Shown in pieces: positions 2,711 to 48,394 of a stretch of DNA of 64,000 nt. Position numbers and translations under genes: made by a program. The stretch comes from Dethiobacteria bacterium. GTDB taxonomy: Bacteria > Bacillota > Dethiobacteria > DTU022 > UBA8154. Under the pieces are notes generated by a model. It saw nothing but the letters and a program-made list of their open reading frames with translations. It ran no database searches and was not told where the DNA came from. The stretch's first letter is position 1; every line of letters starts with the position of its first letter. The DNA is taken from positions 100,432-164,431 of the forward strand of contig JBMNEO010000005.1 of NCBI GenBank assembly GCA_050948825.1, read 5' to 3'.

Positions 2711-2907
2711 TCTTACTATCTCCCCTTTCATTTTTTTTAAAATCTTTTCAGTTCCAAATATGGAAGAATACTCCCCTAGCATTTTATTATATCATATAAT
2801 TTGGATTTAGGGTTGTAAGCCGCCAAAGCAATTTTTACCAACAATTCTCCTCACTTTAAGACACCAATAAATACGGAGCTTGTCTGTGGCGGATATGCAA
2901 GCTTCTG

Positions 2908-14700: not shown

Positions 14701-15717
14701 CTAATCGAAGGCCACCTCCTCAATTTCGCGTGTTTTATCCCTGCGCATCAAGCTTTCCACTGCATCCTGAGGCTTAACGCCCAGAAATAAAACTCTGTAT
14801 ACTTCATCAGTAATAGGCATTTCAACCCCGAGTTTTTGCGCCAGCAGATATGCTGCTTTTGTTGTTTTGATGCCTTCTGCAACCATTTTCATTGAAGATA
14901 TTATCTCTTCCATAGATTTTCCCTTACCGAGCATCATTCCTACGTAACGGTTTCTGCTATGGAGGCTTGTACACGTTACAAAGAGATCTCCTATCCCCGT
15001 AAGCCCGCTGAAAGTTCCGCGCTTTGCACCCAGGGCAAGACCAAGGCGGGTTATCTCCACTATTCCCCGCGTTATGAGTGCTGCCTTGGTATTATCGCCA
15101 TAGTTCATTCCTTCACAGACGCCGGCTCCTATAGCAATTACATTTTTTAAAGCGCCGCCCAGTTCAACCCCAATCATATCAGTATTGGTATAAACCCTGA
15201 AAAGAGAAGTCATAAAGATATCCTGGACAGCTTTAGCGACATTTTCTTCCTCGGCAGCCACTACTGTTGCAGTAGGAATAAACCGGCATACTTCTTCAGC
15301 ATGATTCGGACCGGATAAGACCGCAACCTTACAGGATAAATTGCCAGGAAGCCCCTCGGCTATCACCTGTGAAAGGCGCTTTAAAGACCCTTCAGCCAGC
15401 CCCTTGGCAGCGTTGACAATTATTGTACCCTCCCCGATAAAACCTCTTATCTTATTAATCAGATCCTCAACTGCATGCGAAGGGACGGCGATGACCAGCA
15501 GATCTTTCCCCTGAACCGCCTCTTCCAGATTATTGGTTAGCTTTATATTTTCAGGCAAAGAAACACCGGGCAAATAATCACTGTTTTCGCGTGTCCCGGC
15601 CATTTTTTCCAGTAAGTCCTTCCTTCGTATCCAAAGAACAACTTGAAAACCTTTAGAGCCCAGCAATATTGCCAGTGCTGTTCCCCAGCTTCCCGCTCCG
15701 ATTAATCCTATATTCAT
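14701..15717 (-). CDS. gpsA: NAD(P)H-dependent glycerol-3-phosphate dehydrogenase
   Basis: MNIGLIGAGSWGTALAILL…; the track's 544-aa ORF is an artefactual read-through from out-of-frame plsY into gpsA. Confidence 0.85.
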   Translation of the reverse strand: MNIGLIGAGSWGTALAILLGSKGFQVVLWIRRKDLLEKMAGTRENSDYLPGVSLPENIKLTNNLEEAVQGKDLLVIAVPSHAVEDLINKIRGFIGEGTIIVNAAKGLAEGSLKRLSQVIAEGLPGNLSCKVAVLSGPNHAEEVCRFIPTATVVAAEEENVAKAVQDIFMTSLFRVYTNTDMIGVELGGALKNVIAIGAGVCEGMNYGDNTKAALITRGIVEITRLGLALGAKRGTFSGLTGIGDLFVTCTSLHSRNRYVGMMLGKGKSMEEIISSMKMVAEGIKTTKAAYLLAQKLGVEMPITDEVYRVLFLGVKPQDAVESLMRRDKTREIEEVAFD

Positions 15718-15737
15718 ATCTGGAACAACCCGCCTTT

Positions 15738-16335
15738 TTAAGGAATTTTTACTTTGTCCCCCAGTTTGGATTCCCTGCCCTGTAGCAGCCTTTTTATATT
15801 CGGATAATGTCGCCATAAGAGGATAAAGCAAACGGATAACCCAAAAATAAAGTAATTCAGGGGATAGCTTAATAAATACATGGTAATAGGGATTAATATA
15901 GCTGCAACAATAGTACCAAGTGAAACGTAACGGCTGATTAGAATAATGGCGATAAAAAGGCCAGAATACTACCAGTGTTGGAATGGGTGCCAGGCCCAGG
16001 AATACTCCCAGTGTTGTTGCTGCCCCCCTGCCTCCTTTAAAAGCAAAAAACACAGGCCAGTTGTGACCGATTATTACTGCCAGGCCGCAGAGCAGAATAA
16101 CCCATGTTTCGGTTCCCAGATAAGATGATATAAGAATTGTCAGTAAACCTTTAACCGCATCAAGGATTAAGACGATGATCGCAAATTTAAATCCCATTAA
16201 TCTGGCGATATTTGTTGCTCCAGCGTTCCCGCTTCCAATTTTTCTGATATCCACCCCTTTTTGCGTTTTAGCAATTAAGTAACCAAAAGAAACAGAGCCT
16301 AATAAATAAGAAAGAATGATGAGAAGTACGGACAT
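15738..16335 (-). pseudogene. plsY: Glycerol-3-phosphate acyltransferase PlsY, interrupted by a 1-nt frameshift at about 15957-15965 (T5 homopolymer)
   Basis: N-terminal frame: MSVLL…GSGNAGATN…HNWPVFFAFKGGRGAATTLGVFLGLAPIPTLVV. The +1 frame continues LFIAIILISRYVSLG…WRHYPNIKRLLQGRESKLGDKVKIP* (canonical PlsY C-terminus) and ends at the TAA at 15738-15740. Confidence 0.7.
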
Positions 16336-16337
16336 TC

Positions 16338-17681
16338 CTATTTTTCTCCTTTCCTTTTACGGGATTTTACCAGCAATCTTAAAGGCGTACCTTTAAAATT
16401 AAAGGCTTCCCTTAAACGGTTTTCCAGATATCTCAAATAAGAAAAATGTATCAAGGAAGAATTATTCACAAAAAGAACAAAGGTGGGAGGCCTGGTCGCA
16501 GACTGTGTCCAGTAATATATGCGGCCTTTCCTTCCGCCGGAGGTTGGTAACGGATTCACACCCTGTGCTTCCGCCAGGAGGTTGTTTATTATAGAGGTGG
16601 AGATGCGCATACTGTAACTTTCGTACACTTCCCTGAAGAGGTTGAACATTCTTTTTAAACGGCGGGGTTCATACACAGAGGTGAAAATAATTGGAGCAAA
16701 GGATACAAATTTTAATTGTTTTTTAACATCATCTATTATTTCATTAACAAAGCCTTCTCTATGCCGTTCTTTTACCAGATCCCATTTATTTAAAGCAATA
16801 ATCAGGGCTTTGTTGCTCTCCAGGACATAACCGGCAATTTTTTTATCCTGTTCGGTTACCCCTTCGGGTGCTTCCAGCAGCAGTAAAACCAGATCAGCGT
16901 TTTCTATTGCTTTTAAGGAGCGTAAAACACTGTAGTACTCAACATTTTCATATACTTTGCTTTTTTTACGAATGCCGGCAGTGTCTACAAATATGTATTT
17001 GTTCCCTTCCCATTCCACCAGGGTATCGATTGCATCTCTGGTAGTTCCCGGTTTACCCGACACGATAACTCTCTCTTCACCTAACAGGGTATTAATAAGG
17101 GATGATTTGCCGACATTAGGGCGCCCAACCACAGCTACCCGTATCGCATCATCAGTCTCAATACTGCCGGCGCTCTTTGCCCTGCATGCGGGGAAAAAGG
17201 AGATAATTTTATCCAGCAGATCACCGATATTCAATCCATGGGCTGCGGAAACAGGCAGAGGGACGTCTAGGCCAAGCTTATAAAAATCTGCTGTATTCTG
17301 TTTGGCGGACTCGATCTTGTTTACTACCAGCAGCACAGGTTTCCGCTGCCTGCGAAGCATATCCGCGATTTCCTCATCAAGGGGAGTTAAGCCCTGTCTT
17401 CCATCAACAAGAAACACGATCACCGTAGCTTCTTCCAGAGCAAGCTGGGCTTGCTTTTGAACCAGTGTTTCTAATTCTTCGTTATCAGAAAGGGTAAGGC
17501 CCCCCGTGTCGACTACCAAAAATTCTTTATCCAGCCAGCTAGCCCTGCCATACAGGCGATCCCTGGTAACACCGGCCTTTTTTTCTTCGATAGCCCTTCT
17601 TCCGCCGGTGATACGGTTAAAGAGGGTAGATTTTCCAACATTGGGACGGCCTACGATAGCAACAAGCGGAACCACGGCCAA
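16338..17681 (-). CDS. der: Ribosome biogenesis GTPase Der (EngA), tandem GTP-binding domains
   Basis: 447 aa; two G domains (GRPNVGKSTLFN… and GRPNVGKSSLIN…) plus a KH-like C-terminus. Confidence 0.9.
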   Translation of the reverse strand: MAVVPLVAIVGRPNVGKSTLFNRITGGRRAIEEKKAGVTRDRLYGRASWLDKEFLVVDTGGLTLSDNEELETLVQKQAQLALEEATVIVFLVDGRQGLTPLDEEIADMLRRQRKPVLLVVNKIESAKQNTADFYKLGLDVPLPVSAAHGLNIGDLLDKIISFFPACRAKSAGSIETDDAIRVAVVGRPNVGKSSLINTLLGEERVIVSGKPGTTRDAIDTLVEWEGNKYIFVDTAGIRKKSKVYENVEYYSVLRSLKAIENADLVLLLLEAPEGVTEQDKKIAGYVLESNKALIIALNKWDLVKERHREGFVNEIIDDVKKQLKFVSFAPIIFTSVYEPRRLKRMFNLFREVYESYSMRISTSIINNLLAEAQGVNPLPTSGGRKGRIYYWTQSATRPPTFVLFVNNSSLIHFSYLRYLENRLREAFNFKGTPLRLLVKSRKRKGEK

Positions 17682-17694: not shown

Positions 17695-19015
17695 TTAATA
17701 TTGGTTATTTAAATAGTTTCTGATCTCCGCCAGGTGATTTACGGGTACAATCTGAACTTCAAATTTGCCGGCAAGATCCCTCAAGGAAATATCATCCAGG
17801 AAGAGGTCAGTTCCTTCTCTAAGCATAACAGCAGGAATAAAGACAGCCTGACCAAGCTCCTTTTGTGCCAGGCCGGAAAGCAAGTCGCTCCCTGTTAACA
17901 ATCCCGTGACCGTAACATTCCCTCCCCAAAATTTGTTGGCAAGGACATGCAGGTTTGCCTTGATACCTCTGATTTTTTCTAACTCGGCCAGGAATAATTT
18001 TAAAAATGGACCCCCGGATTGACCTGTGACCAGGGAGATCTTTATTTCCCCGGGTAGAGGTGTTCACGGGAGTTTGCTTCCACTGTTCGAGTTCATTTAA
18101 AAATAGTCTTCCCAGCCCCACCCCGTTTTCCACCTGCTCGTAATGCCCGTAATGCTCATCGGAAGGTATGGGAAAACCGGAAAGAAGGTAAAATTCATCA
18201 GCGAGGTACACGAACGGGGTACCCAGGTTCCGTTTAAATTCTTCCTGCAGCTTTGAATAATGCTTTACTATGGTTACTGCATCTGCCGGCGTAATGCTTT
18301 TCAGAGCGGGGAGATCCTGTCTGTATCTGGTTAAACCGACTGGTACCAGGGCTACTGTCCTTAGAGCGGGGTAAAGTTGTGAAAGATCGCCGACCGTCTT
18401 TTGCAAATGTACACCATCATTAAGCCCGGGGCATACTACTATCTGTCCATGCATCACTATCCCCGCAGCAGCCAAGCGGGACAGTTGTTCTAGAATCCGC
18501 CCGGCAAAACGGTTTCCCATCATCTTTACGCCGGATAGTGGGATCGGTAGAATGTATGGAAATATATAGCGGAGATATGCCCCTGCGGATAATCCTCTTT
18601 ATATCCAGTTCTCCCATATTAGTCAAAGTAATATAATTGCCATGAAAAAAGGAAAGGCGATAATCATCATCTTTTTCAAATAATGAGGGCCGCAATGCGG
18701 GAGGCTGCTGGTCAACGAAAGCAAAACACGCAGTGGTTCCGGCAGCGCCTGACCGGCCCGATGGCAGGTGATATAAATTCCAGCCCCAGGTCTTCATCGT
18801 ATGCTTTAGTGACGCGGTATTCCCTGTGCATACCCTCTTTTTTGCGTATGGATAATGTTAGCATCCCGCTCTGCACAAAGATAATAATAATCGAGCAGAT
18901 CGTAAAAAGGCAGGCTGTTAATCCTGAGAAGACTATCACCTGTCTCAATACCCGCCCTGTCAGCCGGTGTTCCTTTTTTTATACCGCTAATTATGAATTT
19001 CCTGTCTCTAGGCAT
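17695..19015 (-). pseudogene. DUF512 (PDZ plus radical-SAM-like) protein gene broken by four frameshifts
   Basis: Five collinear ORF pieces rebuild one DUF512 protein: a PDZ domain (GTPADRAGIETGDSLLRINSLP); a CxxxCxxC-like motif (RRCRNHCVFCF); FFHGNYITLTN…SPLYISIHSTDPTIRRK; MMGNRFAGRILEQL…CPGLNDG; and …TGLLTGSDLL…FLDDISLRDL. The shifts lie at homopolymers near 18840 (T6), 18719 (A3), 18527 (T3) and 18050 (C4G3). Confidence 0.6.
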
Positions 19016-19048
19016 TACTGCAGTTCACCAAATAATTTTGATAAAATC

Positions 19049-19543
19049 TTAACTCATTATCCTATTTACATTCCCTTCTGTCAAGGCACTTACTTTCTCG
19101 TTTTTTACCTGTTTCACGACCTTTAAGATTTTGTTAAATGCAATCCTGCAGCCGGGAATTAAAAAAAGCCTGCCCAGAGTTTCCAGGTGCAGGCTCCTGG
19201 ATATAAAGCCCCCCACCTTCATCAATATATTGAGACAGGGAACTGTATCCACAATCATTATATCATCCGGATCAATCCCTTTAATCCTGCAGAAATTTAT
19301 TAGCGCCTGTTCAACAATATGGCCGGCGTTCTTACAACCCATAATAAATACTTCATGACCTTTTTCATCTTTGCCCATATAGAAAATCTTTCCAAAGTCT
19401 GCACCGCTCTGCCGGTCAAAATAAGGAAGCGCCAGTAGTTCTTTGCCCGCAGGTTTGCTGTCCCCGGGTAAAAGATCAAGATGAAGAGAAGCCGCCATTA
19501 CAGAAGAATGTGTGCCCCCGTAGCAGTGGTAAATAATAATCAT
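19049..19543 (-). CDS. DUF3189 family protein
   Basis: 164 aa; MIIIYHCYGGTHSS… N-terminus typical of the family; assignment from memory. Confidence 0.4.
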   Translation of the reverse strand: MIIIYHCYGGTHSSVMAASLHLDLLPGDSKPAGKELLALPYFDRQSGADFGKIFYMGKDEKGHEVFIMGCKNAGHIVEQALINFCRIKGIDPDDIMIVDTVPCLNILMKVGGFISRSLHLETLGRLFLIPGCRIAFNKILKVVKQVKNEKVSALTEGNVNRIMS

Positions 19544-19552
19544 AAGTCCCCC

Positions 19553-19741
19553 TTAGTGTCTGATGATTATATATGTTCCATTTTCAAGATCATGGACGAT
19601 GCCCTCCATTATACGCGAGAGGTAAGTAGCTACTTTGTCCTGTTCTTCTTTTGTTGAAGCATAAAAAATGGGCGCCCCACACCCGCCTACTTTCCCGGCA
19701 TCCAGAGTGATAATCGCAACAATATATTTTTCAAGCTCCAA
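19553..19741 (-). CDS. Small protein, putative capping-complex subunit for the YIEGIA protein
   Basis: 62 aa, immediately downstream of the YIEGIA gene (MELEKYIVAIITLDAGKVGGCGAPIFYA…). Confidence 0.4.
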   Translation of the reverse strand: MELEKYIVAIITLDAGKVGGCGAPIFYASTKEEQDKVATYLSRIMEGIVHDLENGTYIIIRH

Positions 19742-19758
19742 CCTTAAAAGTCCCCCTT

Positions 19759-20667
19759 TTAATCCGCAGCTTTCCGGCCCAGATAACTTTTTAGCGGCGT
19801 ACTCACGGCGCTTTCCAGCACAGGGACCTTTTTTACCGCTTCTAACAGATACTTGATGTCTTTTTCTAACGGAACGATAATCAGCGCCAGCCTTCCGGTA
19901 TCCAAATCCCTGCGCACAATAGGGGTGAATTCCGGGGTATCTACATCTTTGTAAATTCCCATTAAAGAGGCGGCATCGTGGGCGATTGCAATACGCTGGC
20001 CGTTATTTGCCAGTGTCGCCCGGCCATCGTCATTATATGGTTCAATTACTACACCCAGGGCTCTTTCGAGATAATCTTTCCTTACTTTCTCCATCCCCAG
20101 GTTCATTAAATGTATATCTTCTACAAAGAGATTAGGCCCTTCAAAGAATACCTTTCCTTCTCTCACATGGGCAATGTCGCCCAGTACTTTTCCTCCCATT
20201 AGTTTTTGTGTAATTAAAAAAGCAATGAAACCGACCACCAGACCATAAAAAATATTCCCCCAGTAAGTTGCACCACCTATTAATAGTGCTGCAAACATAA
20301 CGAGATAATTCCTCGCTTCAAATACCCTTGCTATGCCTTCTATATAGTCAGGTCCCCTGGGTACAAGATTGGTTTTATCCAGCTCCTCCAGCATAATTCT
20401 TTCCATTGTCCGCACTTCTCTAAACTGCGTTGCTGCCAAAGCTAGAAAAGTAACTGCAGTAAATTCCTTTTCCGTTAAGGCAGGTATCGCTATCGCCCCG
20501 ATTACAGCCGCAATAAAGGCCATGGAAAGGTGGCTGATTACTCCATGCGGATAACTTGGATACTGGCGGTAATCTCTTTTGAGCAGGAAGTAGCGAATTA
20601 AAACCCCGAGAACTACCCCGTTTAATACTGCCTGCAGGTAAGAGGAATTTATCATCGCTGCGCGCAC
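19759..20667 (-). CDS. YIEGIA family membrane protein
   Basis: 302 aa; contains the eponymous motif …RGPDYIEGIARVF…; multiple TM segments. Confidence 0.55.
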   Translation of the reverse strand: MRAAMINSSYLQAVLNGVVLGVLIRYFLLKRDYRQYPSYPHGVISHLSMAFIAAVIGAIAIPALTEKEFTAVTFLALAATQFREVRTMERIMLEELDKTNLVPRGPDYIEGIARVFEARNYLVMFAALLIGGATYWGNIFYGLVVGFIAFLITQKLMGGKVLGDIAHVREGKVFFEGPNLFVEDIHLMNLGMEKVRKDYLERALGVVIEPYNDDGRATLANNGQRIAIAHDAASLMGIYKDVDTPEFTPIVRRDLDTGRLALIIVPLEKDIKYLLEAVKKVPVLESAVSTPLKSYLGRKAAD

Positions 20668-20676
20668 TCCCCAGAT

Positions 20677-21849
20677 CTATTCGCTTTCCTCGCCTCCACC
20701 TTCTCTGTTTCCTTTTCTGCCAAATTCGGCAAACTCTTTTTTGAAGAAATGTGTCAGCTTGGCCCGCAATTCCTCTGGGCTGCCGGTAGCGATGAGCATA
20801 TATACGCCAAGGGCGATTGCGACAACTAGAATCACCCACAGTACGCTTCGTAAAGCAATCATCCCCAAACCTTCCCTTGCACCTGCATTTTCTTCCGCTC
20901 CAAAGTAAGCCCCCACCGCATCGGCAAAAAGGGCAACTGATTCCTCGGCTCCTTCTTTAGTATTTTCATGTGCCCCTACCTCCAGCAATACAGCCATCGG
21001 CAGCATATCCTGGTTGTAGTCTCCATTGGCCATAAAAATCCCTTTAATCAGGTTGGGGTGTTCTTCATCAGTTATTTTTTTAAGGTTTTCTGCAAAATTT
21101 CTGTTGGCCTCAAGGTTCTGGTTTTGACGCCCTACAACAAGCTGTATCTGTACTTTTTCGTCATCGTTGACAACTTCAAGATACTCCTCCGGAGGGACAG
21201 CATCGCGATGAACATCGAATAAAGCTGCGGCCCCGGATTTGAGCAGCTCTTCTGCAGTCCTCCTGGATCTTTGATAGGCCATGGCATCGTGTGGCACATG
21301 CGTCTCAGTTGAATGGATTATCTTAAAACCTTTTTGCTCCAGCGCTTGCGCAAAGCTATCTCCAACATCTATAATACCGCCGCCCTGCAGGATGCTTTCG
21401 GTTCCGTCCGAAGGAACATAGGATTCTGCCCCATGCGAATGATATATTCCCAGTACCGTCTCGCCGTTTTGCTCTTTTTGGCCCTCCAGTAAATTTGTTT
21501 CAGAAACATTAAAATTTAAAAAAACCTCCTGGTCAAAGTCGGAGAGTGTTATTTTCCCTAGATTTCGAGCCCAGGCAGTATCTCCTTCCAGACGTTCAAC
21601 GCGATACAGAATATTATCCTGGTTAATGTATTCGTCGTCTATATGTACCAGCCTTGCCGTTTTCATGATTACTTCCTCGGTTTCCAGATCTTTCATGGAG
21701 TAATACCCCTCTTTGGGGGAGCGCTCGTCAAGAATATCGGGAAGCTCTGCAGCTTCTGTACCCGGTGTAATAATCAATAAAATAAGCCATAACACTGCCA
21801 ATAAGCAAACAATACTTTTAAATAGTTTTCTACTCTGGATTGTTAACAT
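20677..21849 (-). CDS. spoIIP: Stage II sporulation protein P (SpoIIP family amidase)
   Basis: 390 aa; signal/TM at the N-terminus, IYHSHGAESY… motif, C-terminal TM. Confidence 0.7.
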   Translation of the reverse strand: MLTIQSRKLFKSIVCLLAVLWLILLIITPGTEAAELPDILDERSPKEGYYSMKDLETEEVIMKTARLVHIDDEYINQDNILYRVERLEGDTAWARNLGKITLSDFDQEVFLNFNVSETNLLEGQKEQNGETVLGIYHSHGAESYVPSDGTESILQGGGIIDVGDSFAQALEQKGFKIIHSTETHVPHDAMAYQRSRRTAEELLKSGAAALFDVHRDAVPPEEYLEVVNDDEKVQIQLVVGRQNQNLEANRNFAENLKKITDEEHPNLIKGIFMANGDYNQDMLPMAVLLEVGAHENTKEGAEESVALFADAVGAYFGAEENAGAREGLGMIALRSVLWVILVVAIALGVYMLIATGSPEELRAKLTHFFKKEFAEFGRKGNREGGGEESE

Positions 21850-21927
21850 CTAATCAACACCTGCCAAATATTATTTCGAAAATTTTTTTGGGGAAAAACC
21901 AGTAATTCTTTGACAATCTTAAACTGT

Positions 21928-22623
21928 TCATCCTTCAGTATGGTTATCCTCATCGGCCGGACGATTATCCCCGGCTGAATGTTCGGCAGGAAAAACATCT
22001 TCTTTTTTTTCTTCCCCACTTGCTTCGAGGTTTACTCTTTCAACTGTCTCGCCGACTAATTCTGCCAAACCAAGGGCAATAAAACCGGAAATTACTACAG
22101 CATCAAATACTCCGGCACCTCCGATAGTAATGGATGAGGCAGCTCCGGCAAACATGTTTTCTACCAGCGCCGCCAGATCATTAATTACCATGGCCATTGA
22201 TCCGGCAATAAACGAACCCCTTCTTGTCCTTCCTGAAGCGTAAGCTACTAAACCGGCTATTAATGCAACAATATACAAAGGGTCTAGAAAGAAATTATAG
22301 GTGGGTTCCAAAGGCATGATTTTCATAGTTGCATATACTACAGCTGAAGTAATTATTACAGCAATTACGGATCTGTTTACTTCTGACCTGTCACATTTAC
22401 TCCAGAGGTAGACCGCCAGGATAATCGGAACGACTCCGCCTCCCAGGTTAATGCTGATATTTCCGCCTAAAGGAATATCCGGCAAATATGTTCCGACAAT
22501 CATGGCTACCAGGAAGAGCAAAGCCGCACGGTCATTTAAACGCAACCTGTCAAGCGCCCGCTGTGCCAATCCAAGATATACTATAACGGCAATTACAAGC
22601 AAAAACACAACACCAAAGTTCAC
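21928..22623 (-). CDS. DUF1614 family membrane protein
   Basis: Probable GTG start (VNFGVVFLL…) 9 nt after AAGGGG; polytopic membrane protein; family call tentative. Confidence 0.4.
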   Translation of the reverse strand: MNFGVVFLLVIAVIVYLGLAQRALDRLRLNDRAALLFLVAMIVGTYLPDIPLGGNISINLGGGVVPIILAVYLWSKCDRSEVNRSVIAVIITSAVVYATMKIMPLEPTYNFFLDPLYIVALIAGLVAYASGRTRRGSFIAGSMAMVINDLAALVENMFAGAASSITIGGAGVFDAVVISGFIALGLAELVGETVERVNLEASGEEKKEDVFPAEHSAGDNRPADEDNHTEG

Positions 22624-22724
22624 TGTCAATCGCCCCTTTTTTTCAAATAAAGCGTTATTTCCTTTCAATAGATTTACCCCGAATTGTATTATTTATGCGC
22701 TGCGGTTATTTCCCCCCCCAAAAA

Positions 22725-22746
22725 AAAATCGGCCTTTTCAGGCCGC
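22725..22746 (-). terminator. Terminator after ispH-rpsA
   Basis: cggcc-ttttca-ggccg hairpin with A9 on + (a U-run on the minus transcript). Confidence 0.45.
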
Positions 22747-22788
22747 TTACTGACTTTGATATAAAAATAAGTTTAATATCAGGTAACG

Positions 22789-24816
22789 CTATTTTCCTTC
22801 CTTATCCACATTGCCGGTCTGGCCGTTATTAAAAAGGTCTCCAAAAACGTCCCCAAGGGTTACATTTTGATTTTCACTTTCTCCCTGGGGGGAATGTGAA
22901 GAATAATCCCTGGGAGCGGGCCGCGCCTTCTTTATACTTAAGCTGATTCTTTTGTTTTCTATGCTTATATCCAGGATTTTTGCTTCAATTTCTTCTCCCT
23001 CCTGGATAATTTCCGATGGGTGCTTGACATGGAAATCAGCCATTTGTGAGATATGCACTAAACCTTCAACCCCGGGAATAAGTTCTATAAAAGCACCAAA
23101 ATTTACAATCCTGGTTACCTTGCCCTTGATAATATCCCCGGCGCTGAACTGCTTACCTGCCGTAAACCAGGGATCCGGCTGAGCCTGCCTGATGCTGAGG
23201 CTGATTCTTTCTCTCTCCGGAATTACCTCCAATACTTTAACATCTACCTGCTCGCCAACCTTTAAAACATCCTGGGGATGGCCAACCCGTTGCCAGGAAA
23301 CTTCGGAAATGTGGACTAAGCCGTCTATACCCCCTACATCAACAAAAGCCCCGAAGTCGGTCAATCTCTTAACGGTTCCGGCAATGATTTCTCCTACTTT
23401 TAAATTTTCTATTGTTTCTTTCCTCTGTTTTGCCATTTCTTTTTCCAGCATCTGTTTCCTGGACACGATCACTTTGTCCCTATCCCGGTTTAATTCTATA
23501 ACATTAAAAGAAAATTCCTGCCCTAAGAACTGCTGAAAATCGGGAATATAACGTACATCAACCAGAGAACCAGGCATGAAGCCTTCTATCCCACAGCCTA
23601 AATCTATAATTATTCCTGCAGGAACTACCTCTTTTACGATACCTTTCATAGTTAATCCTGATTCCACGGCCTCTTCAAGTTCTTTCCAGCGCCTTTCTCT
23701 GTCTAAGCGCTTTTTAGAAACGATTACTTTTTCATCCTGTTGTTCTATTTTTAAAACCAACAGGTCAACCTCTTCCCCCTCAGAGTATTTTTCTTTTAAT
23801 GTGGTTTCGCCCTCTAAAAAAACTTCGTTTCGGGGAAGAACTGCCTCAGATTTGTAACCGATATCGAACAGAACCTGCTCATCCTCCACCAGCACAACCT
23901 TGCCTGTGATAATATCACCTGGCCGGTACTCTCTACCCTCTTCCGAGGAAAAGGTTTCCTCTGTTCCGGTTTCTAAGTTACCATCTTCCAACATAGCCAT
24001 GACCTCCTTTATCGTCCAGGATGGGGTTGAAGCCCCTGCGGTTACCCCAACTTTTTTGATCCCCACCAGCCACTCCCTCGAGACATCCCGGGCTCCGGCA
24101 ACCTGGTGAGTTGTTGTTATTTCACGGCAGACCTTTGTCAGCTTGCAGGTATTGGAACTCTTAACGTCACCTACTACAAGCATCAAGTCTGCCCTTGAAG
24201 CCAGTTTAGCAGCAGCATCCTGCCTTAACGCAGTTGCTTTACAGATAGTATTAATAACCTTAAGCTCCGGGCATATCTTTTCCAACTCTACAGCGGTCTT
24301 TAGGAACCCGGTTTCCTGCTGGGTGGTTTGTGAGATAAATAACGCCCTGGAAGAAAGGTTTAAATTATTTATGCCTGACCCGGTTTCGTCCGGTTCAACA
24401 ACAGTGGCATTTCCCCGGGACCAGCCGAGCAAAGCTTGTACTTCGGGATGCTGATGGTCACCATAGATTAAAATATCAAAGCCTTTTTGCTCATAATTGC
24501 GGGCAAGCATTTGTACTCGCTTGACAAACGGGCAGGTAGCATCAATTACTTCGAGATCGTCCCGCTGAAAAAGGCGTTCAAGGATATCCGGCGCAACACC
24601 ATGCGTGCGGATTATTACCGTGCAGTCCTTTAACTCATCCGGGTTATCGGTGGAGGCTACACCTTTTTCGCGTAAGAAACGGATTACGTTATCATTGTGT
24701 ACCAGTGGGCCCATGGTGATAACTTTTTTCCTTTTGCCGGCTTCCTGAAGGGTAATTTTTAATGCATTTTCTACACCTTTGCAAAAACCTGCATGTTCTG
24801 CCAGACAGATCTCCAA
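22789..24816 (-). CDS. ispH: Bifunctional 4-hydroxy-3-methylbut-2-enyl diphosphate reductase (IspH/LytB) fused to four S1 RNA-binding domains
   Basis: 675 aa; N-terminal LytB (…GFCKGVENA…ATCPFV…); C-terminal repeated S1 domains (GxV…FGAFV…GLVHIS ×4); a fusion typical of Clostridia. Confidence 0.85.
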   Translation of the reverse strand: MEICLAEHAGFCKGVENALKITLQEAGKRKKVITMGPLVHNDNVIRFLREKGVASTDNPDELKDCTVIIRTHGVAPDILERLFQRDDLEVIDATCPFVKRVQMLARNYEQKGFDILIYGDHQHPEVQALLGWSRGNATVVEPDETGSGINNLNLSSRALFISQTTQQETGFLKTAVELEKICPELKVINTICKATALRQDAAAKLASRADLMLVVGDVKSSNTCKLTKVCREITTTHQVAGARDVSREWLVGIKKVGVTAGASTPSWTIKEVMAMLEDGNLETGTEETFSSEEGREYRPGDIITGKVVLVEDEQVLFDIGYKSEAVLPRNEVFLEGETTLKEKYSEGEEVDLLVLKIEQQDEKVIVSKKRLDRERRWKELEEAVESGLTMKGIVKEVVPAGIIIDLGCGIEGFMPGSLVDVRYIPDFQQFLGQEFSFNVIELNRDRDKVIVSRKQMLEKEMAKQRKETIENLKVGEIIAGTVKRLTDFGAFVDVGGIDGLVHISEVSWQRVGHPQDVLKVGEQVDVKVLEVIPERERISLSIRQAQPDPWFTAGKQFSAGDIIKGKVTRIVNFGAFIELIPGVEGLVHISQMADFHVKHPSEIIQEGEEIEAKILDISIENKRISLSIKKARPAPRDYSSHSPQGESENQNVTLGDVFGDLFNNGQTGNVDKEGK

Positions 24817-40779: not shown

Positions 40780-40874
40780 GCGACAAAGAGCTGCGACAGG
40801 GTGCTGCAAGTTGCGACAGTGAGAACCGTCCCCTATGTCGCACGTGCGACATAGGGGACGGTTCTCACTGTCGC
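40780..40874. repeat. 62-bp perfect palindrome (40813-40874) with six GCGACA/TGTCGC hexamers
   Basis: gcgacagtgagaaccgtcccctatgtcgcac | gtgcgacataggggacggttctcactgtcgc; extra GCGACA copies at 40780 and 40793. Confidence 0.8.
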
Positions 40875-41150
40875 AATGTTGGGTGGTGATGACGGGACGG
40901 GAACGCCGGGGCGCCTGTTCTTCTGGTGGCAAAAGAGAAGTAACCAAAAAGAAGGAAAATACTGTCATCAAAATAATTACGATCAAAATTAGTATTAAAA
41001 AATGTTGTGTATCCTTTGACAATAGAATATTCCTCCTGAGGTTATGCTCTTTTTTCTATTATTCTCGTATCCGGTTTTTTTATTTATAAAAAAAAGGCCT
41101 TCTGCAAGCCTCTTTTTAGGTAATGACATTATATATGCTGAAGGATTTTC

Positions 41151-41837
41151 TCAGGGTTTTTCCTTTAACTGCCTGATAACCTGCCTTTCCAACCGCGAAA
41201 CATGGGATTGGGATATCCCGAGCATTTTGGCTACCTCCTCCTGGCTCTTTTCCAAAAAATATCTTAAAACAATAATTTGCCTTTCACGCGGAGGAAGCAA
41301 ATTCAACTTTTCTTTTAGGAATATTCTATCAAAAAAGCTGTCGGTATCGCCAGGTACAGAGCCTTCTTCTTGCAAAGGCATGACCGGATGCTGAAGCTCC
41401 ATCAACCAGACAATTTCTTCTTTTGGCAGACCCATTTTTTCGGCAAGCTCTTCCAATCGCGGGCGGCGTTTTAATTTTTGCTGCAGTTCATCTCTATTCT
41501 GCAGGAGTTGAAGATAATGATTGTGATAGGAACGCGATACTTTAAACAGATGACCGTTACGGCGTAAAAATGATTTGATCTCACCGAGGATAAAAGGAAC
41601 AGCATACGTTGAAAACTTCGTTTCTCTGTCAGGATCATAATTATTGAGGGCTTTAAGCAGCCCCAGGCAACCTTCCTGGAAAATATCGTCATATTCAATT
41701 ATATCCAGAGGATACCTCCTGCAGAGGGCATGTACTAAAGGCAGGTGATAATTAACAACCTTTTCCCGGGCTTCGGGATCACCTTGTTTATTTTTAAGGT
41801 AGAGCTCTCGCAGTTGCTCTTCAGTGTACTCCGGCAT
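41151..41837 (-). CDS. sigF: RNA polymerase sporulation sigma factor SigF
   Basis: 228 aa sigma-70 family; follows spoIIAA-spoIIAB. Confidence 0.8.
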   Translation of the reverse strand: MPEYTEEQLRELYLKNKQGDPEAREKVVNYHLPLVHALCRRYPLDIIEYDDIFQEGCLGLLKALNNYDPDRETKFSTYAVPFILGEIKSFLRRNGHLFKVSRSYHNHYLQLLQNRDELQQKLKRRPRLEELAEKMGLPKEEIVWLMELQHPVMPLQEEGSVPGDTDSFFDRIFLKEKLNLLPPRERQIIVLRYFLEKSQEEVAKMLGISQSHVSRLERQVIRQLKEKP

Positions 41838-41867
41838 ATGACTATCCCCTTTTTATGCCCAGTTTGC

Positions 41868-42305
41868 TTAATGATTGTTTTCAGCAACCCTGCCAAAGAC
41901 CTTTGACATTTTAACAGCCGTTCCCTTTCCCGGCGCAGATTCAACTCTTACCTCATCCATGAAATTTTCCATAATCGTAAAACCCATTCCGGATCTCTCC
42001 AGTTCCGGTTTTTCTGTGTAAAGCGGTTCACGGGCCCTGGCGATATCTTCAATGCCTTTCCCGGAATCATATATTTCCACAGTTAACTGCCGTTCATCAA
42101 CATAAGCGCTTATTTTAATAATACCGCGATCATCTTCATCATAGGCATGTAAAATGCTATTTGTAACCGCTTCCGAGACCGCAGTTTTTACTTCGTTTAG
42201 CTCCTCAAGGGTAGGATCGAGGCGTGCTGCAAAAGCAGCGATAACAACTCTCACAAAACCTTCATTCTCTGATCTTGCGGGGACTTCAAGCATCATATAG
42301 TTCAT
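41868..42305 (-). CDS. spoIIAB: Anti-sigma F factor (serine kinase)
   Basis: 145 aa; GHKL ATPase motifs (…EAVTNSILHAY… DSGKGIED…). Confidence 0.9.
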   Translation of the reverse strand: MNYMMLEVPARSENEGFVRVVIAAFAARLDPTLEELNEVKTAVSEAVTNSILHAYDEDDRGIIKISAYVDERQLTVEIYDSGKGIEDIARAREPLYTEKPELERSGMGFTIMENFMDEVRVESAPGKGTAVKMSKVFGRVAENNH

Positions 42306-42363
42306 TAGCCACTGGCCTGACCTGCAAGCCAGTCTCCACCTCCTAAATAAAAATGATCAAAAA

Positions 42364-42705
42364 TCAATCCAGGTTGGCTATTGCCTTACTTTCATCGCTG
42401 CAAACCGGAATAATCTTTAACAGGCCTCCCATCTCCAGGATCTTTTTATTATGCGTTTTTAATCCACAGATTATGACCTTCCCCCCCCTGGCCTTAATCT
42501 GTTTATAACGTCCCAGGATAACACCAATACCGGAACTGTCCATGAAAGTCAAATTTGTCATATTTAAAATTAAGTTCTGTACATGATCATTTTTTTCTAA
42601 TTCTTTATCTACTGTCTGGCGAAAAACAAAAGAAGTGTGGTGGTCTAATTCACCCTTAAAGCGTGCAATAAGGTTTTTTTTTCTTCTGATAAGCTGGACC
42701 TGCAA
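42364..42705 (-). CDS. spoIIAA: Anti-sigma F factor antagonist (STAS domain)
   Basis: 113 aa; …LTFMDSSGIGVILGRYK…. Confidence 0.85.
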   Translation of the reverse strand: MQVQLIRRKKNLIARFKGELDHHTSFVFRQTVDKELEKNDHVQNLILNMTNLTFMDSSGIGVILGRYKQIKARGGKVIICGLKTHNKKILEMGGLLKIIPVCSDESKAIANLD

Positions 42706-42765
42706 TGATATGCCCTCCCTTTATGAAAACAGCTTACTGCTTATAAAACAGCCTACTGCAAAATA

Positions 42766-42792
42766 ATTCTGCATATAATGGAAATTTCCTGC
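42766..42792 (-). promoter_or_regulatory. Candidate sigma-H-type promoter for spoIIAA-spoIIAB-sigF
   Basis: Minus strand: gcAGGAAAT, then gcaGAAT with AGGA-to-GAAT spacing of 17; preceded by the dacF terminator aagccctccgtgggctt plus U8. Confidence 0.35.
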
Positions 42793-42830
42793 AAAAAAAA
42801 TAAAGCCCACGGAGGGCTTGCAAAAAATAT

Positions 42831-43997
42831 TTACCTGCCAAATTTTAACCAGGTTTCCAGGTATCTCCGGAAAAGGCGCGTCAAAGAAGCTCCGGCCACA
42901 TCCCGGGCAACCTCAAGATCTACTTCTTTCAATATGGTATCCCCCTGCATTACTTTAATCTTTCCCACCTTTTTTTCTATTAGAACGGGGGCCTCCAATC
43001 TTTTGGGGAGCTCAAGTTCAGTCCTGTACTGCGGCTCATCCCCTTTTTTGATCAACAGGCTTAAATTTTCGGTTGTCAGGATGTCTATTTCCCGGGCGGT
43101 ACCTTTTTCTACAGGAAGTCTTGCTACTTTTTCCCTTTTATCTGCCAGCTCCAGAGTGTAGAAATTTGCAAATCCGTAATTAAGTAAATCCTGTGCCTCT
43201 TCATAACGGATATCACTTGTTGGGCTGTTTAAAACAACCGCTATAAAACGGGTGCCATCCTTTTCCGCCGTAGCGGATATACAGTGCATTGCTTTATCCG
43301 TATACCCTGTTTTTACGCCGTCACACCCCTCGTAGTAGTGAATGAGACGGTTTGTATTGCTCAAATATACTTTTTCACTTTTAATTTTGCCTTCTAAAAA
43401 GTTCTCATCCATCCAGATAGATACCCAGCGGGTAAAAATTGGATAAGACATCAATTCCCTGCTCATCAGGGCAACATCAAAGGCTGTAGTATAATGATCA
43501 TCGTGGTGAAGGCCATTGGCATTTACAAAATTTGTATTTTTCATTCCCAGTTCATCAGCACGCCTGTTCATTATTTCGACAAATCCTGTTTCGCTGCCGG
43601 AAATATACTCTGCCACTGCTACCGAAGCATCATTTGCCGAACCGACGGCCATGCCAATCAACAATGATTCCATATCTACAACATCGCCGGCGGATAAGAA
43701 AATAGTTGAGCCTCCCATTGACTCCGCGTATTTTGTTACGGGAACCTGGTCATCAAGTGAAATTTCCCCTCTTTCCAAAGCTTCCAGGGCCAGCAGCATA
43801 GTCATGATCTTCGTCAAACTCGCGGGGTAAAGCTTTTCATGCTCGTTAACAGCAAATAAAATTTCTCCTGTTTTATATTCCATCAATAACGCTGCCTTGG
43901 ATTGAATCCTCCCTTCAAAGGCTTGACCTTTTCCTAAAGGGAAAATAAGCAGTGTAAAGAAAATCAGGAAACATACAGCAAAAAGTTTTCTTTTCAT
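42831..43997 (-). CDS. dacF: D-alanyl-D-alanine carboxypeptidase DacF (forespore PBP)
   Basis: 388 aa; signal peptide; SXXK (…PASLTKIMT…); gene order dacF-spoIIAA-AB-sigF as in Bacillus. Confidence 0.8.
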   Translation of the reverse strand: MKRKLFAVCFLIFFTLLIFPLGKGQAFEGRIQSKAALLMEYKTGEILFAVNEHEKLYPASLTKIMTMLLALEALERGEISLDDQVPVTKYAESMGGSTIFLSAGDVVDMESLLIGMAVGSANDASVAVAEYISGSETGFVEIMNRRADELGMKNTNFVNANGLHHDDHYTTAFDVALMSRELMSYPIFTRWVSIWMDENFLEGKIKSEKVYLSNTNRLIHYYEGCDGVKTGYTDKAMHCISATAEKDGTRFIAVVLNSPTSDIRYEEAQDLLNYGFANFYTLELADKREKVARLPVEKGTAREIDILTTENLSLLIKKGDEPQYRTELELPKRLEAPVLIEKKVGKIKVMQGDTILKEVDLEVARDVAGASLTRLFRRYLETWLKFGR

Positions 43998-44056
43998 GTT
44001 TCTGTCATCCCTCCTGCTATATTTTCCCCACTACTTATTAAATGATACAAAATAGC

Positions 44057-44096
44057 CTTGCTTCTTCTAAAACAAGGCTGTTTTTGTTTTTTATAT
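44057..44096. terminator. Bidirectional terminator between pdp and dacF
   Basis: agccttg-cttcttctaaaa-caaggct followed by gtttttgtttttt. Confidence 0.45.
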
Positions 44097-44105
44097 ATGA
44101 ATGGG

Positions 44106-45422
44106 TTAACTGGGAAACGGGGGGACTACACCATAAATAAGCGGAAGTTCTTCCACCGTTTCATCGCTAATAGCAAAAGCATTAATTAAGTCTTTGCAAG
44201 CAGCCTGAAGGAGGTCTTCATTATTGCCGTGGATATGGGCTAAAACATCCCCTGCAAGCACCTGGTTCCCAACTTTCTGGTTCAATACAACCCCTACAGA
44301 GGGATCTATCTCTTCCCCCTTGTAAGATCTTCCCGCACCGAGAAGGGCTGCCGCCTTGCCCACCTTTTTCGTGTCAATTTCCGAAATAAAGCCCGCTTTT
44401 GGCGCCTCGATTACTTCAACGAATTTGGCCTGTGGCAATAAGGCTGGATCATCCACACATTGGGCGTCTCCTCCCTGGCAACTGATCATCTGTTTAAACT
44501 TTTCCAGCGCTGCCCCGTTTTTTAACAGTTTGCGGAGTTCAGCCTGACCCTCTTCCGGGTTTCTTACCTTGCCGGCAAGCGCAAGCATATATCCGCCGAG
44601 AACGATACAGAGTGTTTCCGCATCAGCAGGGCCTTCGCCTTTTAAAATACTGATTGCCTCCTTCACCTCCAGGGCGTTTCCAACGGCAAAACCCAGAGGT
44701 TGATTCATATCCGTAACAACTGATACAATTCGCCTGCCCATTTCTTTTCCTATACGGAACATCGTCTCCGCAAGGTAAAACGCCTCTTCCCTGGTCTTCA
44801 TAAAGGAGCCCTGCCCGGTTTTGACATCCAGTAAGATAGCACCGGCCCCGGAGGCAATTTTTTTGCTCATAATGGATGCAGCAATCAGTGAAGTATTTTC
44901 GACTGTTCCTGTGACATCCCGCAGGGCATAGAGTTTCTTATCCGCGGGAGTCATTCTCTCCGTTTGGGCCATTATCGCCAGATCGTTTTCTTTAATCAGC
45001 TCGATAAACCTTTCCAGGGAAAGTTCTGCGCTAAAACCCGGTATGCTCTCCAGTTTATCGATCGTCCCTCCGGTAAAACCCAATCCTCTTCCGGAGACTT
45101 TGGCCACGGGAACCTCTGCAGCAGCTACCAGCGGGGCCAGCGCAAGGGTTGTTTTATCCCCTACCCCGCCGCTGCTATGTTTATCGGCTACCAGTTTCCC
45201 CAGGGAGGAAAAATCAAGCGTCTCCCCCGATTCAGCCAGGGCAGCAGTAAGCGCAGCGGTTTCCTTTGGGCTGAGACCCTGAAAGAAGACAGCCATTAAA
45301 AATGCGGCCATTTGATATTCAGGAATCAAGCCCTTGTTATACTTGTCAATCAGAAAAAATATCTCTTCCGCAGAAAGGCTTTGACCGTCCCTTTTTCTAA
45401 TAATAAGATCTAACGCCCTCAT
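44106..45422 (-). CDS. pdp: Pyrimidine-nucleoside (thymidine) phosphorylase
   Basis: Start MRALDLIIRKRDG…; …DKHSSGGVGDKTTLALAP…. Confidence 0.85.
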   Translation of the reverse strand: MRALDLIIRKRDGQSLSAEEIFFLIDKYNKGLIPEYQMAAFLMAVFFQGLSPKETAALTAALAESGETLDFSSLGKLVADKHSSGGVGDKTTLALAPLVAAAEVPVAKVSGRGLGFTGGTIDKLESIPGFSAELSLERFIELIKENDLAIMAQTERMTPADKKLYALRDVTGTVENTSLIAASIMSKKIASGAGAILLDVKTGQGSFMKTREEAFYLAETMFRIGKEMGRRIVSVVTDMNQPLGFAVGNALEVKEAISILKGEGPADAETLCIVLGGYMLALAGKVRNPEEGQAELRKLLKNGAALEKFKQMISCQGGDAQCVDDPALLPQAKFVEVIEAPKAGFISEIDTKKVGKAAALLGAGRSYKGEEIDPSVGVVLNQKVGNQVLAGDVLAHIHGNNEDLLQAACKDLINAFAISDETVEELPLIYGVVPPFPS

Positions 45423-46613
45423 CCCCGATCCTCTCCTCTTATGAGCAATTTTCCGGCAAAGCTCTGACCGTCCTTTGTTAATTTTCCACATAATAGCTCT
45501 GCCACCGTAGCCCCCAGGTCAGCAAAGCTTTCCCTGGTACCAAGGTTTCCCGGAGTGATCTGATGCCCGTATATAAGCAGCGGTACATATTCTCTGGTAT
45601 GATCCGTCCCTTTAAAAGTTGGATCACAGCCGTGATCGGCGGTTATTACCAGCATATCATCGTCATTTAAACGTTTCATAACTTTTCCTAAAAAACGATC
45701 AAAAATTTCCAGGGCGGCTGCATATCCTTCAACATCGTTTCTATGTCCATAAAGCATATCAAAATCAATTAAATTAGCCCACAATAACCCGTCAAAATTT
45801 TCATCGAGTGCAAAGGAAACGGCTTCCATAATGCTATCATTATCCGAGCCGGGAAGATGACGAGTAACCCCTTTTCCAGAAAAGATATCCATTACTTTGC
45901 CGACAACCCATACCTGCCTTCCATTATTTTGCACCAGATCAAGCAAAGTAGGAGTCAAAAGGAACCAGAGAAAAATCCTTTCTTTCTTTGAGGCGGTAGA
46001 AACTGCCCGGCTTACCCTCGAATGGTCTGGCGATTACCCTGCCTACGGCATGGTTTCCTACAAAAATATTTCTACGTGCCAGGATACACCACTCATACAG
46101 GGTTTCTAATGGAATAATTTTCGTGTGCGCCGCTATTTGAAAAACGCTGTCCGCTGAAGTATAAACGATGGGAAAACCTGTCCGCAGATGTTCCTCCCCT
46201 AGTTTATTAATGATCTCGGTCCCTGAAGCGGCGATATTCCCCAGGGTCTTGCGCCCGATCATATTTTCAAAAGGGCGGATAATTTCGGCGGGAAAACCTT
46301 GCGGGTAAAGGGGAAAAGGGGTTTTCAGGACCAATCCGGCCAGTTCCCAGTGTCCTGAAATCGTGTCTTTGCCAGGGGAAAGCTCAGCCATTTTACCGTA
46401 AGCTCCAAGCAAGTTGTCCACAGGTCCCCTGTGGCTATTATTGTCTAAGATTTTACCCAGTCCCAGGGAAATGAGATTTTCAATCTTCAGCTCCTTTTTA
46501 TGCAGAACATGTCCCAGGGTGTTGCTTCCTGCATCGTTATATTCTTCAGCATCCGGCAGAGCCCCAACTCCTGCACCGTCCAGTACTAGAATAAATGTCC
46601 TGTTTATTGAAAT
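45419..46613 (-). pseudogene. deoB: Phosphopentomutase DeoB with an internal frameshift (about 45940-45950) and no canonical start codon
   Basis: Middle ORF (…[14 protein letters not shown]…[14 protein letters not shown]…[11 protein letters not shown]…) and C-terminal ORF (TPTLLDLV…ITADHGCDPTFKGTDHTREYVPLLIYG) sit in different frames. The N-terminus reads [11 protein letters not shown] with ATA where the conserved Met is expected, and an ATT lies 7 nt after GGGGG. Confidence 0.6.
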
Positions 46614-46685
46614 ATTATTACCCCCTTTTTAAATTTTACAGAAATAGGACTGGCAGCGTTCCTACAAAAAAAACATAGCCTATTA

Positions 46686-47573: not shown

Positions 47574-47752
47574 CCAAGGTTATCCCCTTTAACTAAAAAG
47601 CAGCAATTTTAATAAGTTATTCCACACATTTTGCAAAAACCCTTTTTTCAATGTATTGATCGATCAAATTATTAACAGCGAAAGACAGCACAATTTGCCA
47701 CAGGCAACGTTAACAAATACAAAACCTTTACCCCTGTAGCTTATGCGGGAAG

Positions 47753-48394
47753 TTATATTATGTTAATCACAAGCTCCATAAAAACAGGTGTTACATAGGC
47801 TTCAACCAGACCGCCTAATAATTCAAAAATCAGTACCATAAACATCATAATACAGTACTGTTGGAAATACTGCCTCCTGTTGTTTGCATGTTTTTTAGCT
47901 AAACGGCCTTTTACATTTAAAATTGAAAAGGTCATCGCTGTAGCCCCTGCAACAAGGTAACCAGGGACCATAATTATATTATGCGGCAACACGGCGGCTA
48001 AACAAAAAACAATTCCTTTCAGCGAATAATGCCTTACCATAAATCCAACGGTAAAACCGATGGCAAACCCCTTAATAAGGAGCAAAAATAAAATAAACGG
48101 GAAACCCATCCAGAGCAAGCCCAGCAGCCATAGAACCGATAATAGCAGGATATTTTTTTGATAAGACGTTTTTAATATTTCCAGCGGCTGCAAGATAACA
48201 TCCGCATCTTTTTTTAAGCCTTCAAAAAAATGGCCCATTGCCGTACCCAGCTCTATTACCTGGCTCTCCTGCAAAAAACCGAGCAAAATCGGCCCTGCGA
48301 TAACCCCGGCAAGAAAAAATGCTGTAACAACAGTATATATACCCAGGTTTTCCCTGATATATTCTAAAATATCTCTTTGGAAGCGCTTTAACAT
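47753..48394 (-). CDS. spoIIM: Stage II sporulation protein M
   Basis: 213 aa membrane protein; KGFAIGFTVGFMV, LPHNIIMVPGYLVAG, IEAYVTPVFME align with B. subtilis SpoIIM. Confidence 0.8.
   Translation of the reverse strand: MLKRFQRDILEYIRENLGIYTVVTAFFLAGVIAGPILLGFLQESQVIELGTAMGHFFEGLKKDADVILQPLEILKTSYQKNILLLSVLWLLGLLWMGFPFILFLLLIKGFAIGFTVGFMVRHYSLKGIVFCLAAVLPHNIIMVPGYLVAGATAMTFSILNVKGRLAKKHANNRRQYFQQYCIMMFMVLIFELLGGLVEAYVTPVFMELVINII

What the first reader, a model, noticed from the sequence alone, without database searches (positions are those of the whole stretch)
17695..19015. DUF512 (PDZ plus radical-SAM-like) gene next to der is broken into five frames; all breakpoints sit in homopolymer runs
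Conceptual joining of ORFs 18806-19015, 18712-18948, 18420-18797, 17819-18523 and 17695-17901 (plus an unlisted frame near 17900-18075) rebuilds a full-length DUF512 protein. The four shifts map to T6 (about 18840), A3 (about 18719), T3 (about 18527) and C4G3 (about 18050). This is either a decaying pseudogene or a cluster of homopolymer sequencing errors. The neighbouring essential gene plsY has the same kind of lesion.
Basis: seen in the sequence. Interest (0 to 1): 0.5.

Follow-up and report, generated by a model that had tools for sequence, protein, structure and literature searches.

The report
Assembly-made frameshifts in a DUF512 gene
The radical-SAM/DUF512 gene next to der really is split into five frames in this sequence, but the four extra bases look like consensus errors from assembling a mixture of strains, not gene decay or homopolymer miscalls, so the finding is an artefact.

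Summary
Window 17695-19015 (minus strand) encodes a PDZ + radical-SAM-like + DUF512 protein cut into five frame segments by four +1 shifts.

The extra bases are at 18863, 18717, 18524 and 18065, not in the T6 or C4G3 runs. None is a demonstrable homopolymer length change.

- Removing the four bases gives a clean 438-aa ORF.
- Independent metagenome contigs of the same species (97.6-99.5% identical) and three related MAGs all carry the intact gene.
- About 63 kb of the window could be compared with same-species contigs. It has only seven window-unique indels, and all are 1-nt insertions: four in DUF512, one each in plsY and deoB, one intergenic.
- At all four DUF512 sites the window carries both natural strain alleles side by side (GTA/GTG becomes GTGA, AAA/AAG becomes AAAG, TTT/TTC becomes TTTC, GAG/ATG becomes GATG). 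The chance probability is about 8e-6.

This is the signature of a consensus or polishing artefact in a strain-mixed metagenome-assembled genome. The source is an NCBI "Dethiobacteria bacterium" MAG with a 196-kb contig. The reads and the sequencing platform could not be checked. Interest is low.

The parts
17695..19015 (-). PDZ + radical-SAM-like + DUF512 gene (TIGR03279-like radical SAM protein). As deposited it is split into five frame segments. It becomes 438 aa once four spurious bases are removed.
   Evidence: Pfam hits on the pieces. Repaired ORF. NCBIfam TIGR03279 at 432.9 bits, below the 574.7 cut-off. Intact 436-444 aa orthologues in L001-L003 and 438-aa genes in L082-L084.
18863..18864 (-). 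Extra base 1. The coding strand reads GATG where strains have GAG (L082 type, L001) or ATG (L081/L089 type). GATG is the shortest supersequence of the two alleles.
18717..18718 (-). Extra base 2. The coding strand reads TTTC-GTT where strains have Phe TTT (L082, L001) or TTC (L081/L089).
18524..18525 (-). Extra base 3. The coding strand reads AAAG-ATG where strains have Lys AAA (L082 type) or AAG (L081, L001, L002).
18064..18065 (-). Extra base 4. The coding strand reads GTGA-ACA where strains have Val GTA (L082 type) or GTG (L081, L001).
16338..17681 (-). der (ribosome biogenesis GTPase Der), intact at 447 aa. It has no indel against L084 or L001-L003.
   Evidence: NCBI name MGI6328281.1.
15738..16335 (-). 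plsY with one extra base at 15964 (coding strand TTCT-GGC versus Phe TTT-GGC in all others). Removing it gives a clean 198-aa PlsY. The shifted frame runs on into gpsA and creates a false 544-aa ORF (14701-16335).
14701..15717 (-). gpsA, 338 aa and intact. In the ORF list it is fused to the frameshifted plsY.
45419..46610 (-). deoB (phosphopentomutase), broken by one extra base at 45953 (coding strand GACT-CCT versus Asp GAC-CCT in nine independent assemblies).
2902..2902 (.). Seventh window-unique 1-nt insertion (AAG[C]TTC). It is intergenic.
   Evidence: absent from L104 and L105

Best explanation
**Claim.** The gene is a normal, functional PDZ/radical-SAM/DUF512 gene. The four frameshifts are errors made when the consensus sequence of this metagenome-assembled genome was built from reads of at least two co-existing strains.

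**Mechanism.** At a polymorphic position the consensus kept both alleles in tandem instead of choosing one. That adds one base and shifts the frame. The errors cluster in DUF512 because that gene holds a roughly 1-kb segment (17846-18874) where the strain haplotypes differ by about 10%, while the flanks are nearly identical.

**Shown:**
- The extra bases are unique to this record.
- They coincide with known two-allele sites.
- The repaired ORFs are perfect.

**Inferred:**
- The step that created them. A likelihood or partial-order consensus that penalises a substitution more than a deletion would prefer the two-allele 'supersequence'.
- That the assembly was long-read or polished. The platform is not known.
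For: 1. All four DUF512 shifts are single extra bases absent from L001-L003 and from every same-species contig covering each site, 4 to 9 contigs per site.
2. About 63 kb of the window is covered by same-species contigs. It has only 7 window-unique indels. All are +1 insertions and none is a deletion. Four of them fall in 1.3 kb.
3. At 4 of 4 DUF512 sites the inserted base equals the other haplotype's allele at the adjacent column. The probability for random insertions is 0.054 per site, or 8e-6 for all four.
4. In codon terms, three sites are synonymous third-position transitions (GTA/GTG, AAA/AAG, TTT/TTC) and the fourth merges GAG and ATG. The plsY (TTCT) and deoB (GACT) insertions also put a would-be synonymous transition next to a third position.
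5. Removing the bases gives stop-free ORFs of 438 aa and 198 aa.
6. dN/dS of the repaired gene is 0.12 against L081 and 0.18-0.33 against L082-L084. It is 0.13 for L082 against L081.
7. plsY, the only PlsY-type acyltransferase gene seen here and generally essential in Bacillota (established knowledge), carries the same lesion.
8. The source is a MAG with a 196,220-bp contig, whereas short-read assemblies of this species reach no more than 20 kb. This fits a strain-collapsed consensus. Strain-oblivious long-read assemblers collapse strains of 97.6-98.7% identity into a single consensus (PMC8302730).
9. A Logan contig (L128) ends at 15961, 2-3 nt from the plsY insertion, as expected if a variant branches the graph there.
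Against: - No reads were available, so the artefact is inferred, not seen.
- The predicted second alleles at plsY (TTC), deoB (GAT) and 2902 were not observed. Nine deoB contigs all carry GAC.
- der also varies between strains but has no insertion.
- The platform and polisher of the MAG are unknown.
- I found no paper that describes this exact 'tandem allele' artefact.
- The two JGI pattern scans were negative but had no positive control.
Confidence: 0.8

Rival explanations
1. It is a real, recently inactivated pseudogene in this particular strain, which also has real frameshifts in plsY and deoB.
For: The sequence as deposited is broken. Three genes in 64 kb are hit, as in a genome undergoing decay. 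dN/dS against the closest allele is 0.33 on only 19 differences, so mild relaxation cannot be excluded.
Against: - Four independent non-repeat +1 insertions with no deletion, stop codon or larger lesion do not match the deletion-biased bacterial indel spectrum (established knowledge).
- Each insertion duplicates a known strain polymorphism (p about 8e-6).
- plsY is normally essential in Bacillota.
- All other assemblies of the species are intact.
Confidence: 0.08
2. The shifts are raw-read homopolymer length miscalls (454, Ion Torrent or Nanopore type).
For: One site (18524-18527) can be read as A2 to A3 if the ancestral AAG allele is assumed. Under particular assumed ancestors, 18065 and 18863 could be 1-to-2 or 2-to-3 extensions.
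Against: - Against the nearest haplotype, none of the four is a run-length change.
- The plsY and deoB insertions cannot be run extensions under any ancestor.
- Other long runs in the window (T8 near 10786, C8A8 near 22711-22726) show no window-unique change: each difference there is seen against only one of the several covering contigs.
- Homopolymer error would give deletions as well as insertions and would not cluster in a single gene.
Confidence: 0.06
3. Programmed +1 ribosomal frameshifting or another recoding mechanism reads through the four shifts.
For: All shifts go in the same (+1) direction.
Against: - The seven contexts share no slippery or stop-adjacent motif.
- The shift sites are absent from every orthologue, including 99.5%-identical ones.
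- One of the seven insertions is intergenic.
Confidence: 0.01

Closest known systems
TIGR03279-family radical SAM proteins (Pfam architecture PDZ_6 + Radical_SAM_2 PF19238 + DUF512 PF04459)
   Same: The repaired protein has the same three-domain order. It has a CxxxCxxC cluster motif (CRNHCVFC). It aligns end to end with TIGR03279 (residues 9-429 to profile positions 2-426 of 433, E = 1e-129). The gene sits directly upstream of der in all relatives examined.
   Different: Its score of 432.9 is below the family's equivalog cut-off of 574.7, so it is a relative, not a member of the cyanobacterial equivalog. Its function is unknown. It has only a faint local similarity to Mmp10 (E = 8e-10, 75 residues).
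Frameshift artefacts in long-read or strain-collapsed metagenome assemblies
   Same: Isolated 1-nt indels truncate otherwise conserved genes in a contiguous MAG. Strain-oblivious assemblers collapse 97.6-98.7%-identical strains into one consensus (PMC8302730). Indels are a main cause of broken ORFs in such assemblies (PMC8302730, PMC9262707, PMC13543314).
   Different: The literature I could read attributes these errors mainly to homopolymers. Here the errors are non-homopolymer insertions that place two natural alleles in tandem, and they track local strain divergence.
Genuine bacterial pseudogenes (for example in host-restricted or recently niche-shifted lineages)
   Same: Multiple frameshifts in one gene, with neighbouring genes intact.
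   Different: Real decay shows deletions, stop codons and relaxed dN/dS, and the lesions are shared by close relatives. None of these is seen here.

Membership tests
DUF512 / TIGR03279-like radical SAM protein | N-terminal PDZ domain | tested here: met
   PDZ_6 at E = 7.8e-9 on fragment 18806-19015
DUF512 / TIGR03279-like radical SAM protein | Radical-SAM-like core with a CxxxCxxC motif | tested here: met
   Radical_SAM_2 is covered contiguously by three fragments, profile positions 1-151. CRNHCVFC is present in the repaired protein.
DUF512 / TIGR03279-like radical SAM protein | C-terminal DUF512 domain | tested here: met
   PF04459 profile positions 1-92 and 147-201 on the last two listed ORFs
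DUF512 / TIGR03279-like radical SAM protein | Score above the NCBIfam TIGR03279 equivalog cut-off | tested here: not met
   432.9 bits against a cut-off of 574.7. It is related to the curated equivalog but is not a member of it.
Real pseudogene | The lesion is reproduced in independent sequences of the same lineage | tested here: not met
   None of the 4-9 same-species contigs covering each site carries any of the four insertions
Real pseudogene | Relaxed selection, or additional lesions such as stops and deletions | tested here: not met
   The repaired ORF is stop-free. dN/dS is 0.12-0.33. Power on the terminal branch is low.
Homopolymer sequencing error | The indel changes the length of a run of identical bases | tested here: not met
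   0 of 4 sites against the nearest haplotype, with one ambiguous. At plsY and deoB it is impossible.
Mixed-strain consensus artefact | The error coincides with a site that is polymorphic in the population, and the inserted base is the alternative allele | tested here: met
   4 of 4 DUF512 sites, chance 8e-6. Not demonstrable for plsY, deoB or 2902.
Mixed-strain consensus artefact | Reads split into two populations, each lacking the extra base | not testable with these tools
   Reads of the source MAG are not available here
Programmed frameshift | The shift site and motif are conserved in orthologues | tested here: not met
   All orthologues are in a single frame

The most novel reading that the evidence does not exclude
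The insertions are real. A natural Dethiobacteria strain would then carry four +1 frameshifts in a conserved radical-SAM gene plus frameshifts in plsY and deoB. That implies either very recent multi-gene inactivation, including a normally essential lipid-synthesis gene, or an unrecognised way of tolerating or recoding +1 shifts. It also implies an insertion process that copies the alternative allele next to the resident one, for example faulty repair of heteroduplex DNA after inter-strain recombination.
Probability: 0.04. Interest if true: 0.7.

Novelty: not a real feature. Interest (0 to 1): 0.1.

Why it matters
Biologically it matters little: the gene is almost certainly intact in the organism.

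Practically it matters for three reasons.
- The artefact is already in public databases. The 69-aa N-terminal fragment is deposited as 'PDZ domain-containing protein' MGI6328285.1. Consecutive accession numbers on either side of deoB suggest deoB has no protein record.
- The lesions would lower completeness estimates and suggest false pseudogenes, including in an essential gene.
- The 'both alleles in tandem' signature is a simple reference-free-of-reads diagnostic. It separates strain-mixture consensus errors from homopolymer errors and from real decay, provided a second haplotype is available.

Tried and rejected
- **Homopolymer explanation.** Rejected after base-level alignment to 99.5%-identical contigs.
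- **Uniform low-quality sequence.** Rejected. der has 0 indels. 19016-22840 has 0 indels against L082. 40847-57572 has only one window-unique indel.
- **Chimeric haplotype switch at each site.** Rejected. The window stays L082-like on both sides of three of the four sites. Most of its L081-like alleles are ancestral states shared with L001, so it looks like a third natural haplotype, not a patchwork.
- **Common sequence or methylation motif around the seven insertions.** None seen by eye.
- **Search for the insertion-bearing 25-mer, and for either plsY allele, in JGI metagenome contigs.** 0 hits each. The intact versions were not shown to be in that collection, so these negatives carry little weight.
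- **Exact look-ups of the window's Der and GpsA proteins in the contig index.** Not on record.
- **Other overlapping ORF pairs.** 8051/8922, 31064/31452 and 32220/32851 were checked as possible further frameshifts. They are separate genes: tyrA/DAHP synthase, YtfJ/DUF2953 and ScpB/ScpA.
- **Literature search for the MAG's origin or platform.** Found nothing.

Full report
**Observation**

Their Pfam hits follow one another along a single architecture:
- PDZ_6
- Radical_SAM_2, profile positions 1-30, 25-94 and 95-151
- DUF512, profile positions 1-92 and 147-201

A three-frame translation shows the reading frame stepping 1 to 2 to 0 to 1 to 2. That is four shifts in the same direction, each equivalent to one extra base. 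The 'unlisted frame' at 17900-18075 is the upstream part of the last frame. The broken gene is therefore real in the sequence and far beyond chance.

**Where the lesions are**

A search with the adjacent Der protein returned three related MAGs (L001-L003, 82-90% nucleotide identity). They have the same gene order and intact genes: DUF512 of 436-444 aa, plsY of 198 aa and gpsA. Alignment shows four single-base insertions in the window.

Exact-protein look-ups then recovered independent metagenome contigs of the same species (JGI and Logan, 97.6-99.5% identical). These carry an intact 438-aa DUF512 gene, and one of them (L084) also has intact der and plsY. Against the closest haplotype (L082/83/84/86) the extra bases on the + strand are:
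- 18863, AGC[A]TCC
- 18717, AAC[G]AAA
- 18524, CAT[C]TTT
- 18065, GTT[C]ACG

In plsY the extra base is 15964, CCA[G]AAT.

Removing the four bases yields a stop-free 438-aa ORF. Removing 15964 yields a stop-free 198-aa PlsY.

**How widespread**

Further look-ups extended same-species coverage to about 63 kb of the 64-kb window. Across that span there are only seven indels that set the window apart from every covering contig, and all seven are 1-nt insertions:
- 2902, intergenic
- 15964, in plsY
- 18065, 18524, 18717 and 18863, in DUF512
- 45953, in deoB, where nine of nine other assemblies lack it

There is no window-unique deletion. der, which lies between plsY and DUF512, has none. The stretch 19016-22840 has none. 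Overlapping ORF pairs elsewhere in the window are ordinary adjacent genes. The errors are therefore sparse and strongly clustered in DUF512. A uniform rate predicts about 0.16 there, against 4 observed.

**What the insertions are**

The species has at least two DUF512 haplotypes. The L081/L089 type differs from the L082 type at 113 of 1037 positions between 17840 and 18880, while the flanks are almost identical. The window is L082-like (16 differences) and retains some ancestral alleles shared with L081 and L001.

At every one of the four sites the two haplotypes differ, and the window carries both alleles side by side:

| Site | L082-type allele | L081-type allele | Window |
|---|---|---|---|
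| 18065 | Val GTA | Val GTG | GTGA |
| 18524 | Lys AAA | Lys AAG | AAAG |
| 18717 | Phe TTT | Phe TTC | TTTC |
| 18863 | GAG | ATG | GATG |

For a random base inserted at a random place in this segment, the probability of mimicking this pattern is 0.054. For four of four it is 8e-6.

The plsY and deoB insertions have the same form (TTT to TTCT, GAC to GACT). Each places a transition partner next to a codon third position, where the change would be synonymous. Their second alleles were not seen in the few contigs available. A Logan contig ends 2-3 nt from the plsY site, which hints at a variant there.

**Interpretation**

No known mutational process writes the alternative population allele next to the resident one. 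A consensus built from a mixture of strains can do so.
- If a substitution between two read populations is aligned as an insertion plus a deletion, each allele column can win on its own.
- A likelihood polisher that rates deletions as cheaper errors than substitutions will prefer the two-allele supersequence. This step is my inference; no tool result or paper I read shows it.

The source fits this picture. It is an NCBI MAG labelled 'Dethiobacteria bacterium' whose contig is 196,220 bp long. Short-read assemblies of the same species break at 20 kb or less. Strain-oblivious long-read assemblers are reported to collapse strains of 97.6-98.7% identity into one consensus, and indels are reported as a main cause of broken ORFs in such assemblies (PMC8302730; also PMC9262707, PMC13543314). 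I could not establish the platform.

**Against real decay**

- The repaired gene has no other lesion.
- dN/dS is 0.12 against L081 and 0.18-0.33 against L082-L084, compared with 0.13 between the intact alleles. Power on the terminal branch is low.
- The indel spectrum is seven insertions and no deletions, the opposite of the usual bacterial bias (established knowledge).
- plsY is normally indispensable in Bacillota (established knowledge).

**Against programmed frameshifting**

There is no shared motif. None of the shift sites exists in orthologues. One insertion is intergenic.

**What the gene is**

The repaired protein aligns end to end with NCBIfam TIGR03279 (radical SAM protein, E = 1e-129) but scores below the equivalog cut-off. 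It has a CxxxCxxC motif and only faint local similarity to Mmp10. It is a PDZ/radical-SAM/DUF512 protein of unknown function, conserved immediately upstream of der in this lineage. Nothing about it is unusual.

**Limits**

- No reads could be inspected.
- Two JGI pattern scans were negative but had no positive control.
- Second alleles for three of the seven sites are unobserved.
- I found no publication describing this exact artefact.

**Verdict**

The homopolymer localisation is wrong. The best explanation is a mixed-strain consensus artefact (confidence about 0.8), so this is not a real biological feature and interest is low. The public record already contains a fragment protein from it (MGI6328285.1).

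Noticed in passing
window 45419-46610 (minus strand), shift at 45953: deoB (phosphopentomutase; NCBIfam NF003766, E = 3e-150 after repair) is a third gene broken by a single window-unique extra base. The nine other assemblies of the species covering the site all lack it.
   Followed up: yes
window about 46585-46610 (minus strand); also L091, L092, L096, L098: deoB has no ATG, GTG or TTG start upstream of its conserved N-terminus. The full-length match to the family starts at '[11 protein letters not shown]'. An AAGGGGG ribosome-binding site is followed by ATT/ATA codons. All same-species assemblies have the same sequence, and gene callers start 62 residues late (333 aa). This suggests a natural non-canonical (ATT or ATA) start codon.
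   Followed up: partly
window 17846-18874: Within one species the DUF512 gene exists as two alleles about 10% divergent (113 of 1037 nt, dN/dS 0.13), while the flanking DNA is more than 99.9% identical. This looks like a recombination import or a maintained allelic dimorphism confined to this gene.
   Followed up: partly
window 14701-16335 (minus strand): The 544-aa ORF is a false PlsY-GpsA fusion. After the plsY frameshift the wrong frame stays open across the intergenic gap into gpsA.
   Followed up: yes
window 2902: A window-unique single-base insertion (AAG[C]TTC) lies in the intergenic region downstream of the chorismate mutase gene. It is the same kind of lesion as in the genes.
   Followed up: partly
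window 22711-22726: A C8A8 tract in an intergenic region varies in length between assemblies and relatives. It is an ordinary homopolymer polymorphism or error and is not window-unique.
   Followed up: no
window 19049-20667 (minus strand): A conserved sporulation-linked block lies next to DUF512: a DUF3189 protein, a small YIEGIA_cap protein, a YIEGIA protein and SpoIIP. It has the same order in all relatives.
   Followed up: no
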